DNA from: Methylomarinum sp.
Lineage (GTDB): Bacteria > Pseudomonadota > Gammaproteobacteria > Methylococcales > Methylomonadaceae
Direction: 5' to 3'
DNA length: 64,000 nt
NCBI GenBank assembly: GCA_965277025.1
Contig: OZ255706.1
Coordinates: 3,893,504 to 3,957,503 of the forward strand
Part shown: piece after piece, positions 9,001-15,000 of the stretch
Layout of the letters: each line of letters begins with the position of its first letter
Numbering within the stretch: position 1 is the first letter of the stretch
Made by a program: the position numbers

Positions 9001-12000
9001 GCAGGCGCTCCTTGTCTTTCAAGATCAAATCATAGGCATCAACATCATCCGCCTCCGCCTCGGTCGCTTTTTTGCCCATCTTGGGGTTAACCAGCCGTTT
9101 GCTTTTTTTGTCGATGGAAAAATAACCGTTATGAATCTGGTCAACATTCATGCCTGCCAGATAATCCTGATAGGTTTCTGGTAAAAATAAATCCTGCTGG
9201 ATTTCATTCAGTGCGGCTGAATATTCCTCTTCGAAAATCCTGGCGTATTCGCCTTTTTCATCGTCCCGGTCATAATCCCGATACCTGGCGACTTCATCAA
9301 TAAAAAACAGGGTTAATACCTTGATGCCCTGATGGAAAAGCGTTTGTTCCCTCTCAAAATGCGCTCTGACAGCCTCACGAATCTGAATCCGTCGTAGCGC
9401 GGTTTCATTGACATCACCCACAGCTTCCCCCGCCAGCAAACGGAGTCCATTGGTAAATTCCACAGTATCATTTATGGCGTTAATGTCGGCAATGACAAAG
9501 CCCCGGTATTGATCCAGCTCGCCCGACAACGCATACAAGTTATCGCCTTTTTTCAGTTTGCGCAGCACCCGTTTAATGCCACTGTTTTGCTTGATTTCCA
9601 TTTCAATTCGGGCCGTTGGCGCTTGTCTGGACACTTCGATGGATTCCAGATACAAATACGCATTCGTGCCGGAAAGCCCTTTGACCGAAATACCGCGTAC
9701 AGCAATCTTCTTGACCAGCTTCTGGTTATAGGCATCCAGCGCATCCAGCCGGTGGATTTTATGATGCCGGGTCTTATGCGTGGCGGAATAACGAAGCAGA
9801 AATAAAGGATTGAATTCTTTCAGCGAATCCAGTGTTTTCGCACCTTCCATTTTCTGCGGCTCATCCAGAATCAGAATCGGCCGATTGGCCTTGATCACAT
9901 CAATCGGACGGCGGCTCTGAAAATCGTCCAGTTCCTCATAAATCCGCCGGTTATCCTTGCCGCGGGCATTAAACGCCTGCACATTGATCACCATGATGTT
10001 GATCCCGGCATCAGAGGAAAAGCTTTCCAGATTATGTAATTGCTTCGAATTGTAAATAAAAAACCGCGCTTTCTTGTGATAATGCTCCAGAAAATGCTCG
10101 GCGGTAATTTCCAGTGATTTATACACGCCTTCCCGAATGGCAATACCGGGCACCACAATAATGAACTTGCTCCAGCCATAGCGCTGGTTCAGCTCAAAAA
10201 TACTTTTGATATAGCAATAGGTTTTACCCGTTCCTGTTTCCATCTCCACATCCAGATGGTACGGCGCAATCGCCAGCGCTTTTTTGCTGTAGGTCTTATC
10301 GACCACAAACCCGCCTTTTTTGAGGGTTTTAAACTCAGTTAAAGACTGGCTTTGCGGTAAGTTCTGCTGACGTTGCACCTGCTGGATATTGTCTAATAAC
10401 TGCTCAGGCGACAGGATAATCTCCGCATTCTTGAAACCGATTTCATCATCCAGGCGCTGTTGCTGGATTTTACCCGGATCAATCCGGTAGCCGAGCCTAA
10501 TAGTATTGGGTTGCCCTTCAAAACAATCCACCACAGCTTCTACGGCGCGGGTTTGGTAGGCTTGTTGTTTGAATTTGAGTTTCATGGATTATTCTCTTTT
10601 TTGACCACGAAAGACACGAAACAACACGAAAAGCACGAAATTTTTATTCGACTGCACTGTATGTAAATGACAATTTTCGTGTCGATTGTGCTTTTCGTTG
10701 TTCACAATACCAGTCTTGTTATGTCTGCTTTGGGGTAGGTTCCAAAATTTACAAGCAATCCGAGTTTTATTCCGCTTGCTTTCAAATAGTTAATTACCTG
10801 CGCCTTATGTTCTGGACCTATCTCCTTGACGGCTTTGAGTTCTACAATAATTTGATCATAACAAATAAGATCGGGCTTGTAGGTCTGTTGTAGTGGTTTG
10901 CCTTTATAGCTCAACTTTAGTTCCTGCTGCGCCTTAAACGGAATATTACGTTTGCTCAACTCTTGCTCAAGGCATTCCTGATAGATCGCTTCAAGAAAAC
11001 CACATCCCATTTCACGATAGACTTCAAAAATAGCACCTTGAATTTGATAGCATTCATTTTTAAGAATAATTTTTTCGTGTGGTTCGTGGTTCATTTGCCA
11101 TCTTTTCCTTCATTCTTTTTCACATTCCTGACGAACTGTCAAAAATTTCTTGACAGTTGCCTCCAGACTTAACTCACCTGAATATGAAGCTCTTTTTTTA
11201 ACCACGAAAGACACAAAAAGCACGAAAGGTTTATTCGGCTACGCCGAATGCAGTATTTTTTCGTGACTTTCGTGCTTTTCGTGGTTCATATTGTTTTTAT
11301 CTCAGTATGTGGTGACATCAGTTTAAAGATCTGTTCGACATTGATCTTGACCGCATCGCTGGCAAACCCGGCGTCACGGAATACCACCCGCAGCGGCTCC
11401 CGCCTGGCCAGTTCCTTACAAAACTCTTCGGTAATTTTGCCATCGGTTTCAAAACAGGCGGCCAGGGCGTTGCCATCGACGAAATACACCCGTAGGGGCA
11501 ATTCATGAATTGCCCCATTTGCCCCAATTTCCTCTTTTGTGATTGGCAAAGTCAAATCCACACCCCAGTCCAGCAAGACCTGAAACAGTAAATCTTCTGC
11601 GGTGCGCTCGGGTTTGATATTGTCGGTGTTGTTGAACAGATCGCCCTGGTTGATGGCATCCGGGCGGTAATAAACATCGACCATATTGCTGGAATCGACT
11701 TTGAGTACGCGGAAGCCGGTGTCTAATTTTTTGGACTGTACGGGCAATTCATGAATTGCCCCTACGATTTGTTTGCCGGCGCGGCGAATGCGTTCCTTGC
11801 TGATTTCGGCGATGGTTTTGTAACCGGCCTTGAACGCTTCGGATTTTTCATCACACGGTTCAGGCAGTTGCACCATGATGAATTTTCGCTTGCCGCCGTC
11901 TTCGGCGTTGAGTTGCATGACGGCGTGGGCGGTGGTGGCGGAGCCTGCGAAGAAGTCGAGGATAATGTCATTATCTTTAATTTTTGATACTTGCATCAAA

Positions 12001-15000
12001 TAAAAAATTAAAGAGCTTGGTTTTGAATAGTCAAAAGGAATATTTAATGCTTTGATTTCATGTGAACCTTTTTGATTAATATGTCCCTCAATAAAACTAT
12101 TAGGTTTTGCAGAAGAATTATCAATTACATCTTGTAGATAAGTTTTCGTAAAAACATTCCATTTTGCAGGAGAACCATCCTTAGTAACTAAATTTGATGA
12201 GCGCACTTTTTTAATAACAATTTTGTCAAACTCTTGATCAAATTTCTTTTTAGTCCAACGCCAAATACCATCACCTAAAACAGGTCTTTCTGGGGGAAAT
12301 GTAGATCCTGGAGGAATAACCTCTGTACCATCTGGACATTTTATCCAGAAACGTTGCTCTGGGTTCCGATTTTGTATAGTTGACATATATAGACGAACCA
12401 GTTGATATTTTTCTCCTTTCCGAGGTCCATTATCTTCTATCAAATTATACGCTTTAATATTAGCTCCACCAAAAAATGATACTGCACATGCAATATTCTT
12501 TGTATACGTCAATATATAATCGAAATTTGGTGCCCAATAGTCTCCTTTATTATTACTTTTTTTTGTAATCCTTCCTGCACACCCAATAAAGTTTTCCTCA
12601 CCAAATACTTCGTTGCATAATTTTTTTAGATTATCTACTTCCACATCATCAATACTAATAAAAATTACCCCATCATCCCTGAGCAGGTTCCTGGCTAACT
12701 TCAAGCGCGGATACATCATGGAAAGCCAATCCGAATGAAACCGGCCATTGGATTCGGTATTGGCGACCAGGCGGTTGCCTTCGTCATCGTAATCCCCGCT
12801 GTCGGCTTTCCATTGTTCTGTGTCCACGGCAAACCGATCTTTGTAGATAAAATCCTTGCCGGTGTTATACGGCGGGTCGATATAAATCATCTTGATCTTG
12901 CACAGCCAGGTTTCCTGCAACAGTTTCAGCGCATCGAGATTATCGCCCTCGATAAACAGGTTTTCGGTGCTGTCAAAGTCGACGCTTTCTTCGCGGCACG
13001 GCCGCAGGGTTTTGTTGATTGGCGTGTTGGCGGTGAGCAGTGCTTCGCGCTTGCCGGGCCAGTCCAGGCGGTAGCGTTCCTATGGGCCTTCGACGATGTG
13101 GTCTGAGAGTTCCTGTTTTAACAAATCCCAGTCAATCGTTTTGCGTAGGGGCAATTCATGAATTGCCCCTGCTACGGATTCGGTGACACAATTGGGAAAC
13201 AATTCCATCAATTTTTCAATCTGTTCCTGGGTGATGTTTTTGGAGTGCATTTTCATTTTTTCCATTTGTTCGCTCCATTGGCCGGATTCAACACATCCAG
13301 CGCCCATTTTAACGGGTTGTTTTTGATATATTCGTTAATACGTTGATAATCGGCATCATTGCGAATGATGTGTTCGTAATAATTGCGTTGCCAGCATTTT
13401 TGTCCGGGTGTTTGGCGTATTTGGTTAATTTTTTTTGATGATTGCATTTTAAATCGGCCAATAATCCTGGGCAGTATCATTTTTCTTCGTTGCTCTTTCG
13501 TCATTTGTAGGGGCAATTCATGAATCTGTACGGGCAATTCATGAATTGCCCCTACGGGGGCGGTGATATGAACAATGCCATGAAAATGATTGGGCATAAT
13601 GACAAAGTTTCCTATTTCAATATTGTCATAATGGCAAGGCATATCAATCCACACTTGGTTAACAATCTGCCCTGGATCATTCAATATCATTTCCCCTTCA
13701 ACAATATCACCCAGCAAACATACGTGATCCTGCGTGCAAATAGTCACAAAACAGGCGCCCGCCTGTGAGTAGTTATAACCTTGCAAGCGAATTGAGCGGC
13801 GATTTTGTCTGTCATTTTTCATTTATTACAGAACCTGAAACAAACCATCAGGGGATATTAAATAAAAGGTCAACCAGTTCCCGGTTCAGGTAATAATTTT
13901 CCCGTCCAAGTTTATGTTTTTCGAGGATGCCATAGTCGGCCAAGGCGTCGAGATAACGGGTGGCTGTCGCCCTGGATACACGAATATCGTTTTCCAGAAA
14001 TTGTACTTTGGTGTACGGGTGATAAAAAATATTGTTGATTAAATCCTGACTGTAGAATTTAAACTGATTTCTGATGGTATGTTTTTGTTGTTGCAACAAG
14101 TCTTTTATGGCTTCTACCAGGGTGATGGTCTGGCTGGCGGTAATTTCTATAGCTTTTAACATATAGATGATCCAGTCTTGCCAGTCATTGTCGTCTCTGA
14201 CTTGTTGTAATCGCTGATAATATTCGGTTTTGGTCTGGTTAATGTAACGGCTTAGATAGAGGACGGGGAAATCCAGTAATCCGGTTTTGACCAGATAAAG
14301 GATATTGATAATGCGGCCGGTTCGGCCATTACCATCATAAAAGGGATGAATGCTTTCAAATTGATGATGAATAAGCGCCATTTGCACCAATGGATCATTC
14401 CGAGGCGGCTGTTGATTGATGATTTGTTCCAGATCGCCCATCAATTCCGGAACATGTTGGGGTTCTGGCGGGGTGTAGATAATGTCCCCTGTTTGTTCAT
14501 TTTTTAATACGGTACCCGGTTGTGTTCTGAAGCCTGCACGGTTGTTTTCAAGATTCTCCTGTATTTTCAGGATTGTGTTTAATGTCAGTAAACCGTGCGC
14601 TTTTACTGCCTGATAGCCCACTTGCAAGGCCCGGTTATAGTTGGCGACTTCTTTGGTTGCCAGATTGCTTAAATCTGATCTCAGTGTATGTTTATACAGG
14701 TCATCCCGGGTAGTAATGATATTTTCTATTTCCAAGCTGTCTTTAGCTTCCTGTAAAGTAAGCGTAGACAGCAGAATTTGCTGATTGGGGATACTTTTAA
14801 CAACACCTTTGAGTTCTGCCAAAGGCCGATGCGCTTTAATTAAAGCCATCAGGATGGTTGGGTCGTCAGTATCAATGGCCAGATCAGATAATTTTTGCAT
14901 CGTTGGCTCCATTCAAAAAAGTCTTTTTTTGAGCATTTTCTCGACAATCTTCTCACAAATGACATTTTTTGAGAAGTTATTGCCTGAGCTGATCAATTTC

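What the first reader, a model, noticed from the sequence alone, without database searches (positions are those of the whole stretch)
11492..13172. REP palindrome inserted in frame three times in the Mod methyltransferase, always as GAIHELP
Seen: the 22-28-bp palindrome GTA(G/C)GGGCAATTCATGAATTGCCCC(TAC) occurs at 11492, 11738 and 13145, each time translated GAIHELP. A second frame (GQFMNCP) is also open but is never used. I saw no copy outside 11.5-13.6 kb. Known: REPs are normally intergenic; coding palindromes are best known from Rickettsia RPEs. Inference: the adjacent RAYT seeded or converted loop-coding segments of its neighbour, creating protein sequence; the three sites seem to fall in variable regions of Mod.
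Basis: partly seen in the sequence, partly recalled or inferred. Interest (0 to 1): 0.72.

Follow-up and report, generated by a model that had tools for sequence, protein, structure and literature searches.

The report
In-frame REP palindromes in Mod gene
A small DNA hairpin repeat (REP), apparently spread by the tyrosine transposase gene next door, sits three times inside a restriction-system methylase gene. It reads as the peptide GAIHELP because that is the only stop-free frame of the full element. Both this and REPs inside the transposase's own gene have been described before, so this is a clear but ordinary example.

Summary
The perfect palindrome GGGCAATTCATGAATTGCCC occurs at 11496, 11742 and 13149 in a type III Mod gene. 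It also occurs 1.5 times (13507-13555) in the adjacent RAYT gene. None is expected by chance.

With its GTAG/CTAC feet, the 28-nt element is stop-free in one frame only (VGAIHELPL) on either strand. The frame "bias" is therefore forced.

Of the 120 best Mod homologues (the closest REP-free ones 72-74% identical), 118 lack the peptides, and the two REP-free loci examined have no RAYT. A 97-99% identical metagenome locus has all three peptides in an intact Mod. The window's Mod carries a CAG-to-TAG stop.

In an AlphaFold model the three sites fall in loops.

The RAYT matches TnpA_REP subclass 2.4. Quentin et al. 2018 already reported in-frame "double-foot" REPs inside the tnpA_REP gene as the hallmark of that subclass. 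Di Nocera et al. 2013 documented in-frame GTAG REPs in unrelated genes.

New details:
- A sister lineage (Fic-RAYT-Mod remnant) carries a different REP both inside its RAYT and at the same Mod site, so the two co-vary.
- The RAYT is a mosaic with a swapped central cassette.
- The identical REP occurs in many phyla.

Verdict: a new member of a known kind, of modest interest.

The parts
11492..11515 (.). REP copy, Mod site 3: GTAG + 20-nt perfect palindrome, single-footed on the + strand (followed by CATT). Read on the minus strand as GANGAIHELPLR.
   Evidence: It is a net +8 aa (24 nt) relative to REP-free Mod homologues (alignment A1). In the model of P0014 it is the loop between strands E552-557 and E568-573, with pLDDT<50 at 561-564.
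11738..11765 (.). REP copy, Mod site 2: GTACGGGCAATTCATGAATTGCCCCTAC, double foot with one foot mutated. Read as IVGAIHELPVQ.
   Evidence: It lies in the hypervariable linker after ERIRRAG and aligns to a gap in the solved Mod 6K0W. 31 of 31 nt, including the CCCGTACAG variant, are identical to the first RAYT-internal copy.
13145..13175 (.). REP copy, Mod site 1: GTAGGGGCAATTCATGAATTGCCCCTGCTAC. Read as SVAGAIHELPLR. It lies about 80-110 bp downstream of the RAYT stop, which is the position of a REPtron flanking REP.
   Evidence: Homologues have a different 10-aa segment here, so it looks like a replacement with a net +3 aa. In the model it is the loop between E27-31 and E40-44. The same site in L204 carries the other REP type.
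13507..13555 (.). 1.5 tandem REP copies inside the RAYT gene: GTAGGGGCAATTCATGAAT / CTGTACGGGCAATTCATGAATTGCCCCTAC. Read as VGAIHELPVQIHELPLQ.
   Evidence: As ssDNA it folds at -20.9 kcal/mol, z -9.8. It sits directly after the HUH motif PNHFHGIV, the position at which the 120 best RAYT homologues nearly all carry VGAIHE[LS]PL.
13253..13822 (-). RAYT / TnpA_REP gene (189 aa), subclass 2.4 type. Motifs: NHFH, WQRNYYEH, EYIKNNP. Its stop overlaps the Mod start by 13 nt.
   Evidence: PF01797 at 27.8 bits (cut-off 23), C-terminal half only. NF047646 at 57.4 bits, below its cut-off of 80. Homologues. Subclass signatures from PMC6006769.
11286..13265 (-). Type III Mod methyltransferase reading frame, start MEKMKMH at 13265. 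It is interrupted by an in-frame TAG at 13080-13082.
   Evidence: PADLOC MTase_III 549.6 bits. The near-identical P0014/L121 has CAG (Gln) at the stop position.
11972..12598 (-). AT-rich central target-recognition region of Mod (GC 0.28-0.38). It is non-homologous between the window and L121.
13848..14912 (-). SoFic-type Fic gene immediately upstream of the RAYT. The Fic-RAYT-Mod 5' junction is conserved in L121, L204, L205 and L206.
7469..10585 (-). Type III Res subunit of the same restriction-modification system. The GxxExxY gene at 10702-11094 lies between Mod and Res.
14977..18916 (-). DUF4391 gene (14977-15657) and SNF2-type helicase gene (15647-18916). Both also precede Mod in the REP-free homologous loci.

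Best explanation
The locus is a REPtron of the TnpA_REP (RAYT) subclass 2.4 lodged between the Fic and Mod genes of a type III restriction-modification island.

Its cognate REP is the 'double-foot' hairpin GTAG-GGGCAATTCATGAATTGCCC-CTAC. As is typical for this subclass, one copy lies in frame inside the RAYT gene, directly after the HUH motif. The REPtron's downstream flanking REP lies inside the first 45 codons of Mod. Two further copies lie further into Mod.

The inferred mechanism is as follows. The HUH/Tyr enzyme binds the folded hairpin on single-stranded DNA, cuts at the GTAG foot, and rejoins it at nearby sites. Selection on a then-functional Mod kept only copies that add whole codons, avoid stops and fall in surface loops or linkers.

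The full element has TAG in one frame and TGA in another, on either strand. Every surviving coding copy with both feet therefore reads VGAIHELPL.

The insertions predate the split between the window and its 97-99% identical relative L121. Later, the TRD was exchanged between the two lineages, and Mod in the window acquired a nonsense mutation.

Shown: identity of the elements, positions, forced frame, loop location, absence from RAYT-free homologues, and co-variation of the RAYT-internal and Mod-site-1 REP types.

Inferred: catalysis by this RAYT, local hopping, and selection as the filter.
For: - **Real repeat, stable hairpin.** 4 exact copies plus 1 truncated copy against 0 expected. The ssDNA hairpin folds at -11.9 kcal/mol, z -6.4.
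- **One open frame.** Read directly from the sequence. In 122 copies from other genomes, 70 have both feet. Among copies lying in open stretches of at least 150 aa, 23 use the GAIHELP frame and 2 use GQFMNCP; of those two, L027 lacks the GTAG foot and L010 only begins at the REP's own TAG.
- **RAYT subclass 2.4.** The signatures NH[IFV]H, WQ, YIxNNP, a length near 194 aa, and a double-foot REP inserted in tnpA_REP are all met.
- **Internal REP is a family trait.** The 120 best RAYT homologues nearly all have VGAIHE[LS]PL after HUH. 61 of 71 metagenome RAYT genes (36-55% identical) have a GT[AG]G-footed palindrome there, with varied cores. In 14 the same core also flanks the gene.
- **Mod homologues.** 118 of the 120 best homologues lack the peptide. 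The REP-free loci L202 and L203 have no RAYT.
- **Shared with an intact relative.** L121 shares all copies at orthologous positions and has an intact Mod.
- **Loop location.**
- **Co-variation.** L204, L205 and L206 have the Fic-RAYT-Mod junction, but with REP type GGGCGTATTGCAATACGCCC both inside the RAYT and at Mod site 1.
- **Same element in other real genes.** In-frame copies occur in GltB, SelA, transaldolase and a type III Res of other phyla, mostly between Pfam domains.
Against: - No enzymology exists for any subclass 2.4 RAYT, so mobilisation by this protein is an inference.
- Only 64 kb of a 3.98-Mb contig is visible. The genome-wide number of copies and the intragenic-to-intergenic ratio in this organism are unknown.
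- The five visible copies are all within 2.1 kb. This also fits local duplication or gene conversion without transposition.
- The closest REP-free Mod is only 72-74% identical, so exact insertion boundaries are undefined. Sites 1 and 2 look like replacements rather than clean insertions.
- Mod in the window is interrupted, so current selection on these peptides cannot be claimed here.
Confidence: 0.8

Rival explanations
1. GAIHELP is a functional peptide motif selected at the protein level, for example a shared interaction or regulatory motif of the RAYT and Mod. On this view the DNA palindrome is incidental.
For: V90, G91, A92, I93, H94, E95 and P97 are at least 90% conserved in the RAYT alignment A2. 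All coding copies use one frame.
Against: - The DNA is a perfect 20-28-nt palindrome with no synonymous variation among the copies.
- The identical DNA lies mostly in short open stretches, likely intergenic, in many phyla.
- More distant RAYTs keep a palindrome at the same place but with different cores and in another reading frame, for example GRGTARRAPT and RAGLKPAPT.
- The single frame is forced by stop codons.
- In the model the sites are loops, two of them with pLDDT below 50.
Confidence: 0.05
2. Mod is a decaying pseudogene, and the REPs accumulated neutrally after its inactivation. Their being in frame is then luck.
For: There is an in-frame TAG at 13080-13082. The collection's gene call for the window is a 477-aa C-terminal fragment (P0001).
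Against: - L121 has the same three REPs in an uninterrupted 636-aa Mod, with CAG at the stop position. The insertions therefore predate the nonsense mutation.
- There are no frameshifts or other stops in the 674 codons.
- All three copies map to loops.
Confidence: 0.07
3. The copies in Mod arose by local replication slippage or gene conversion templated by the RAYT-internal REP. No RAYT-catalysed transposition was involved.
For: - All five copies lie within 2.1 kb.
- The site 2 copy is 31/31 identical to the RAYT-internal variant, including its foot mutation.
- RAYT loops across the family show tandem partial duplications such as HELPLHELPL and HESPIHESPI, which are typical of slippage at hairpins.
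Against: - Conversion needs a pre-existing homologous tract at each Mod site, and REP-free homologues show none.
- The same element is dispersed far from any RAYT in other genomes: only 4 of 120 loci have a RAYT within the fetched locus of up to 8 kb. This requires a mobilising activity.
Confidence: 0.08

Closest known systems
TnpA_REP (RAYT) subclass 2.4 REPtrons (Quentin, Siguier, Chandler & Fichant 2018, BMC Genomics 19:475, PMC6006769); equals Bertels group 4
   Same: The motif signatures NH[IFV]H, WQ and YIxNNP match. The length is similar (189 aa here, about 194 aa in the paper). The REP is a long 'double-foot' type with 5' GT[AG]G and 3' C[TC]AC. A REP is inserted in frame inside the tnpA_REP gene between HuH and Y. 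The taxonomic distribution is patchy across phyla.
   Different: Here the flanking REPs are not intergenic. They lie inside the neighbouring Mod gene, three times and in frame. The RAYT stop overlaps the Mod start. The paper does not describe co-variation of internal and flanking REP types between sister loci, or a mosaic RAYT.
Intragenic GTAG-tagged REPs (Di Nocera, De Gregorio & Rocco 2013, BMC Genomics 14:522, PMC3733652)
   Same: GTAG-footed palindromes occur inside known genes without breaking the frame. They are sometimes inserted twice in one ORF, are enriched in DNA-transaction genes, and are interpreted as tolerated insertions.
   Different: I could not read this particular REP sequence in the paper's text. 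The paper's intragenic inserts are mostly dimers encoding 20-30 aa. Here they are single 24-31-nt units encoding 8-10 aa, located next to their RAYT.
Rickettsia palindromic elements (RPE; Ogata et al. 2000, from my own knowledge and as cited in PMC3733652)
   Same: These are palindromic repeats inserted in frame into protein-coding genes. They are tolerated because they fall at the protein surface.
   Different: RPE-1 elements are about 100-150 bp and have no associated RAYT. [quoted passage not shown]
E. coli REP/BIME with TnpA_REP (Ton-Hoang 2012; Messing 2012, PMC3479197)
   Same: A GTAG tetranucleotide sits at the foot of a G+C-rich hairpin. An HUH/Y1 enzyme is encoded beside its REPs. This is the biochemical model for cleavage at the foot.
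   Different: It belongs to subclass 2.2. Its stems are imperfect and bulged, the REPs are extragenic and present in hundreds of copies, and there is no REP inside the gene. NCBIfam's REP_Tyr_transpos equivalog model is not reached here (57.4 bits against a cut-off of 80).

Membership tests
TnpA_REP / RAYT subclass 2.4 (Quentin 2018) | HuH signature NH[IFV]H | tested here: met
   The window has PNHFHGIV. H79 and H81 are invariant in alignment A2.
TnpA_REP / RAYT subclass 2.4 (Quentin 2018) | WQ motif and Y motif YIxNNP (catalytic Tyr with Asn four residues on) | tested here: met
   W144-Q145-R146 and E-Y165-I-K-N-N169-P170 are present. W144, Q145, Y165, N169 and P170 are invariant in A2.
TnpA_REP / RAYT subclass 2.4 (Quentin 2018) | REP inserted in frame inside the gene between HuH and Y; variable-length insertion | tested here: met
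   The REP lies at 13507-13555, directly after HUH. The same is seen in 61 of 71 related genes.
TnpA_REP / RAYT subclass 2.4 (Quentin 2018) | Associated long or 'double-foot' REP (5' GT[AG]G plus 3' C[TC]AC) near the gene | tested here: met
   The consensus is GTAG...CTAC. The copy at 13145-13175 lies about 80 bp from the RAYT stop.
TnpA_REP / RAYT subclass 2.4 (Quentin 2018) | Pfam Y1_Tnp (PF01797) core domain | tested here: met
   27.8 bits against a cut-off of 23, but only profile positions 61-121 are matched. The N-terminal half is interrupted by the REP loop.
TnpA_REP / RAYT subclass 2.4 (Quentin 2018) | Site-specific ssDNA cleavage and joining at the REP foot | not testable with these tools
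   This needs biochemistry.
NCBIfam NF047646 REP-associated tyrosine transposase (equivalog, E. coli type) | Whole-protein score at or above the curated cut-off of 80 bits | tested here: not met
   57.4 bits. The protein is related but is not the E. coli-type equivalog.
GTAG-tagged REP superfamily (Di Nocera 2013) | 20-40-bp stem-loop with an unpaired GTAG tag at one end | tested here: met
   GTAG plus a 20-nt perfect palindrome. The 28-mer folds at -11.9 kcal/mol. Note that in the full double-foot form the feet can also pair with each other.
GTAG-tagged REP superfamily (Di Nocera 2013) | Repeated many times in the host genome, mostly extragenic | tested here: inconclusive
   Only 5 copies are visible in the 64 kb, and all are intragenic. 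The rest of the 3.98-Mb contig cannot be read. In other genomes 97 of 122 copies lie in no open stretch of 150 aa or more.
REPIN (Bertels & Rainey 2011) | Two inverted REPs separated by a short spacer, forming one long hairpin | tested here: not met
   The copies are single symmetric palindromes. The RAYT-internal copy is a direct 1.5-mer, not an inverted pair.
Rickettsia palindromic elements (RPE) | Element of about 100-150 bp, without an associated transposase | tested here: not met
   The element is 24-31 nt and is adjacent to a RAYT. It resembles RPEs only in being an in-frame coding palindrome.
Type III restriction-modification Mod subunit | N6/N4 methyltransferase domain, Mod-type architecture, adjacent Res | tested here: met
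   PF01555 99.8 bits. PADLOC MTase_III 549.6 bits and REase_III 1138 bits. Solved relatives are 6K0W and EcoP15I 4ZCF.
Type III restriction-modification Mod subunit | Uninterrupted reading frame | tested here: not met
   There is a TAG at 13080-13082. L121 has CAG at that position.

The most novel reading that the evidence does not exclude
The REP inside a subclass 2.4 RAYT gene may not be a merely tolerated insertion. It could be part of a portable specificity cassette, made of the HUH strand, the internal REP and the following helix.

On this reading the cassette is exchanged by recombination between RAYT backbones, and the flanking REPs are then converted to the new type. The internal copy would act as the heritable seed from which a cognate REP population is re-founded after horizontal transfer. 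That would explain why an identical 28-nt REP is found from Cyanobacteria to Omnitrophota.

The basis is one pair of lineages, the window and L204/L206. They share 80-95% identical Fic, RAYT ends and Mod 5' DNA. They differ at 41-57% identity in the RAYT centre (window 13690-13420) and again at the Mod site-1 REP.
Probability: 0.3. Interest if true: 0.55.

Novelty: new member of a known kind. Interest (0 to 1): 0.3.

Why it matters
This is a compact natural example of how a hairpin repeat and its tyrosine transposase shape a neighbouring gene. The same locus shows four things:
- the transposase carrying its own substrate in frame;
- the flanking REP absorbed into a methyltransferase's coding sequence;
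- purifying selection leaving only loop-located copies in the one open frame;
- a sister lineage in which both REPs were replaced together.

The general phenomena are already published, so the case adds no new category. It could serve as a tractable pair of cognate RAYT/REP systems for testing REP recognition in subclass 2.4, for which no biochemistry exists. It also warns annotators that short peptides recurring across unrelated proteins, such as VGAIHELPL or RGVLQYAPT, can be translated REPs rather than protein motifs.

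Tried and rejected
1. **Chance or low complexity.** Rejected: 0 matches in 100 shuffles.
2. **'Second frame open but avoided'.** Rejected as a signal. The GTAG foot puts TAG in that frame. Of the two GQFMNCP-frame cases in open stretches of 150 aa or more, L027 lacks the GTAG foot and L010's stretch only starts at the REP's own TAG.
3. **The palindrome is private to this genome.** Rejected.
4. **A REP inside the RAYT is new.** Rejected after reading Quentin 2018. Nunvar 2010 and Bertels 2017 do not mention it.
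5. **Literature search for the peptide or DNA strings.** No paper holds them.
6. **Most of the 120 genome copies lie inside RAYT genes.** Rejected. Only 4 loci have a RAYT within the fetched stretch, and only 2 copies are internal.
7. **Other GTAG-footed REP families in the window.** None is convincing. The other hits have 7-8-nt arms with a mismatch, or lie inside a repeated giant ORF.
8. **Exact insertion boundaries in Mod.** Not obtainable, because the nearest REP-free homologue is 72-74% identical. Only site 3 gives a clean +8 aa.
9. **Organism of origin.** Not determined.
10. **Unused tools.** The third protein search, the representative-library search and fold search were not used. They would not have changed the verdict.

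Full report
**Observation**

The perfect 20-nt palindrome GGGCAATTCATGAATTGCCC occurs at window positions 11496, 11742, 13149 and 13532. A truncated copy starts at 13511. With up to three mismatches there are four matches, against 0.00 expected from 100 dinucleotide-preserving shuffles. Nothing similar is found elsewhere in the 64 kb, even at five mismatches.

With flanks, the consensus element is GTAG-GGGCAATTCATGAATTGCCC-CTAC. As single-stranded DNA it folds at -11.9 kcal/mol, z = -6.4.

The first three copies lie in a minus-strand type III Mod gene, from 11286 to the MEKMKMH start at 13265 (PF01555 99.8 bits; PADLOC MTase_III 549.6 bits). Each is translated as GAIHELP. The fourth copy and the truncated one lie inside the adjacent 189-aa gene at 13253-13822. 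That gene hits PF01797 (Y1_Tnp) and, below its cut-off, NCBIfam's REP-associated tyrosine transposase model. There the copies read VGAIHELPVQIHELPLQ.

The Mod frame contains one in-frame TAG at 13080-13082.

**Why it is always GAIHELP**

Three frames are possible:
- GTA GGG GCA ATT CAT GAA TTG CCC CTA C gives V-G-A-I-H-E-L-P-L.
- The next frame begins G TAG, a stop.
- The third frame reads ...TCA TGA, also a stop.

Because the element is its own reverse complement, the same holds on the other strand. A full double-foot copy inside an intact ORF can therefore only read VGAIHELPL.

I checked this on 122 copies of the exact 20-mer fetched from other genomes. Seventy have both feet. Ninety-seven lie in no open stretch of 150 aa or more. 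Of the 25 that do, 23 use the GAIHELP frame. Of the two GQFMNCP cases, L027 lacks the GTAG foot and L010's open stretch only begins at the REP's own TAG.

Pfam confirms several hosts as real genes. They are glutamate synthase (REP between the amidotransferase and central domains), SelA (between its two domains), a transaldolase (two copies), a type III Res subunit (directly after the ResIII domain) and a T9SS-sorted protein.

**Insertion or ancestral?**

Among the 120 best Mod homologues, only the window's own product and P0014 contain IHELP. The closest REP-free relatives are 72-74% identical and include Shewanella, Proteus and Pasteurella proteins. Against them (alignment A1):
- Site 1 is a replacement-like difference, 13 against 10 residues, in a variable segment near the N-terminus.
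- Site 2 lies in the hypervariable linker after ERIRRAG.
- Site 3 is a clean +8 residues.

Site 3 is single-footed on the + strand. GTAG plus the 20-nt core is 24 nt, exactly eight codons.

Two REP-free homologous loci have SNF2 helicase, DUF4391, Mod and Res, but neither a RAYT nor the palindrome (L202 and L203).

P0014 comes from a 7.6-kb metagenome contig (L121) that is 97-99% identical to the window across helicase, DUF4391, Fic, RAYT and both ends of Mod. It carries all the REP copies at orthologous positions. It has CAG where the window has TAG. Its central target-recognition region is non-homologous to the AT-rich window segment 11972-12598. Its gene between Mod and Res also differs, RhuM instead of GxxExxY.

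The insertions are therefore older than both the TRD exchange and the nonsense mutation, and they coexist with an intact Mod.

**Position in the protein**

I built an AlphaFold2 model of P0014 (mean pLDDT 64.6). The foreign TRD at residues 261-393 is unmodelled, while the N- and C-terminal parts are mostly confident.
- Site 1 is the turn between strands 27-31 and 40-44, with pLDDT below 50 at residues 32-37.
- Site 2 is at the end of helix 462-482, before strand 495-502.
- Site 3 is the turn between strands 552-557 and 568-573, with pLDDT below 50 at residues 561-564.

Against the solved Mod 6K0W, site 2 aligns to gaps.

**The RAYT and its internal REP**

The 120 best RAYT homologues are 50-65% identical (one, from L121, is 97%) and come from sources in many phyla. 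Nearly all carry VGAIHE[L/S]PL at the same place, directly after PNH[FIV]HGI and before QRRKMLLPKIIGRFKM. Tandem partial repeats such as HELPLHELPL and HESPIHESPI are frequent.

In 71 more distant RAYT genes from metagenomes (36-55% identical), 61 have a GT[AG]G-footed palindrome in that loop, but the cores differ. Examples are ...GCGACGCATGCGTCGC... (VGATHASPL)...GCACGGCGCGCCGTGC... (GRGTARRAPT, in another frame) and ...GCGGGTTTGAAACCCGC... (RAGLKPAPT). In 14 loci the same core recurs just outside the gene.

This is what Quentin, Siguier, Chandler and Fichant (2018, PMC6006769) described for TnpA_Y1 subclass 2.4. [quoted passage not shown] The window protein meets every sequence criterion: NHFH, WQRNYYEH, EYIKNNP and 189 aa.

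Di Nocera et al. (2013, PMC3733652) had already catalogued in-frame GTAG REPs in unrelated genes and argued that disruptive insertions are purged.

**Link between the RAYT and the Mod copies**

Three observations connect them.

First, the site 1 copy lies about 80-110 bp downstream of the RAYT stop. That is where REPtron flanking REPs lie in other loci. The RAYT stop overlaps the Mod start by 13 nt.

Second, the site 2 copy is identical over 31 nt to the first RAYT-internal copy, including the foot variant CCCGTACAG.

Third, and most telling, the RAYTs closest to the window protein at their two ends are P0122 and P0147. They lie in loci L204-L206 with the same Fic-RAYT-Mod junction, where Mod is reduced to a 5' remnant. 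There the RAYT-internal REP is GGTAGGGGCGTATTGCAATACGCCCGTAC (RGVLQYART). The Mod remnant carries that same REP type at the same site 1, read RRGVYRTGVLQYAPT. The internal REP and the Mod-site REP thus co-vary between lineages.

Segment by segment, the window RAYT is 75-77% identical to these proteins over residues 1-53. It is 79-92% identical over residues 129-189, but only 18-21% over residues 85-128. At the DNA level, identity to L204 is 85-95% in most of Fic and 83-93% in the RAYT 3' end plus the Mod 5' end. It falls to 41-57% between window 13690 and 13420, and dips again at the site 1 REP. The RAYT is therefore a mosaic with an exchanged central cassette.

**Mechanism**

The best-supported reading is an ordinary subclass 2.4 REPtron that settled between Fic and Mod of a type III restriction-modification island.

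By analogy with E. coli TnpA_REP and IS200/IS605 TnpA (established biochemistry for other subclasses, PMC3479197), the HUH/Tyr enzyme would bind the hairpin on single-stranded DNA. It would cut at the GTAG foot and rejoin the element nearby. Selection on a then-functional Mod kept only copies that add whole codons, lie in the single open frame and fall in loops.

The catalytic steps and the local hopping are inferred. The anatomy, the forced frame, the loop location, the absence from RAYT-free homologues and the co-variation are shown.

Rivals:
- Selection on the peptide is contradicted by the invariant palindromic DNA, by the many copies in short open stretches, and by the different cores and frames in other RAYTs.
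- Neutral accumulation in a pseudogene is contradicted by the intact L121 Mod.
- Slippage or gene conversion without transposition is possible for the local copies. It does not explain dispersal in other genomes, where only 4 of 120 loci have a RAYT within the fetched stretch.

**Novelty and score**

Both halves of the finding are published: a REP inside the RAYT gene, and in-frame REPs in other genes. This is a new member of a known kind.

I did not find the following points in the papers read:
- the one-open-frame property of this REP;
- the 24-nt, eight-codon unit;
- the identical 28-nt REP across many phyla;
- the paired replacement of the RAYT centre and the flanking REP between sister loci.

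The last point allows a more novel reading, a portable specificity cassette with the internal REP as seed. I rate that at about 0.3 probability. Overall interest is 0.3.

Noticed in passing
window 13080-13082: There is an in-frame TAG in Mod (GP*ERY). The 97-99% identical relative L121/P0014 has CAG (Gln) at this position. Mod, and with it probably the whole type III system, is likely inactive in this genome.
   Followed up: yes
window 11972-12598; L121 4932-5489: The AT-rich (GC 0.28-0.38) central target-recognition region of Mod is non-homologous between two otherwise near-identical loci. This is a TRD swap bounded by conserved Mod ends.
   Followed up: partly
window 13420-13690 versus L204 about 7130-7400; L206: The RAYT is a mosaic. 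Its ends are 75-92% identical to P0122 and P0147 at the protein level, but its centre (HUH, internal REP, next helix) is only 18-21% identical. The REP at Mod site 1 changes type in step with the centre.
   Followed up: partly
L204 7546-7803; L206 1102-1230: The Fic-RAYT unit, followed by only a decayed 5' remnant of Mod (42-85 codons), occurs in unrelated chromosomal contexts such as riboflavin genes and an RND efflux operon. Either the rest of the R-M system was deleted, or the Fic-RAYT-Mod' block moved.
   Followed up: no
L001-L120 (genome-contig scan): The exact 20-mer, usually the whole 28-32-nt palindrome, is present in Nostoc, Chamaesiphon, Pseudanabaena, Chloroflexota, Planctomycetota, Omnitrophota, Nitrospirota, Patescibacteria, Desulfobacterota, Coxiellaceae and others. 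Such cross-phylum identity is unlike the lineage-specific REPINs of Pseudomonas and E. coli.
   Followed up: partly
P0139, P0148, P0165, P0174, P0198 and others (RAYT homologues): The RAYT loop often holds long tandem runs of half-REP units (HELPL, HESPI, HELPRQRQ), up to about 60 residues. This suggests frequent slippage or repeated cleavage and rejoining at the internal REP.
   Followed up: no
L083 1451-4441: Another restriction gene, a type III Res-like helicase in an unrelated genome, carries the same REP in frame (AGAIHELPLP) directly after its ResIII domain.
   Followed up: partly
window 10702-11094; L121 6281-7312; L202 8988-9872: The slot between Mod and Res holds a different small cargo gene in each relative: GxxExxY/PDDEXK_3, RhuM and Bro-N.
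   Followed up: no
window 74-7469: SbcC-like (74-3337), SbcD-like (3784-5022) and AAA_13 (5019-7469, 507 bits) genes lie directly downstream of Res. The AAA_13 start abuts the Res stop. With SoFic, DUF4391 and an HKD+Snf2-like helicase (PADLOC PDLC01075, 441.6 bits), the region looks like a defence island.
   Followed up: partly
window 19764-22668 and 53683-61502: Several IS copies are present. The rve-type transposase ORFs at 21748-22668 and 57827-58747 give identical Pfam scores. The DDE_Tnp_1 ORFs at 53683-54801 and 60384-61502 are both 372 aa. A DDE_Tnp_1_6 ORF lies at 19764-21281. The 14-nt palindrome ATAGTTTAAACTAT occurs at 22985 and 59063.
   Followed up: no
window 37250-53425: A giant 5391-aa ORF on the minus strand contains internal repeats. 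The same 23-mer, GTAGTGGCTTCAGAAACCAATCC, recurs at 42528, 48096, 49782 and 51453.
   Followed up: no
window 34408-35901: A 497-aa ORF has a short PglZ-domain match (30.4 bits) at its C-terminus. It may be a fragment of a BREX-like system.
   Followed up: no
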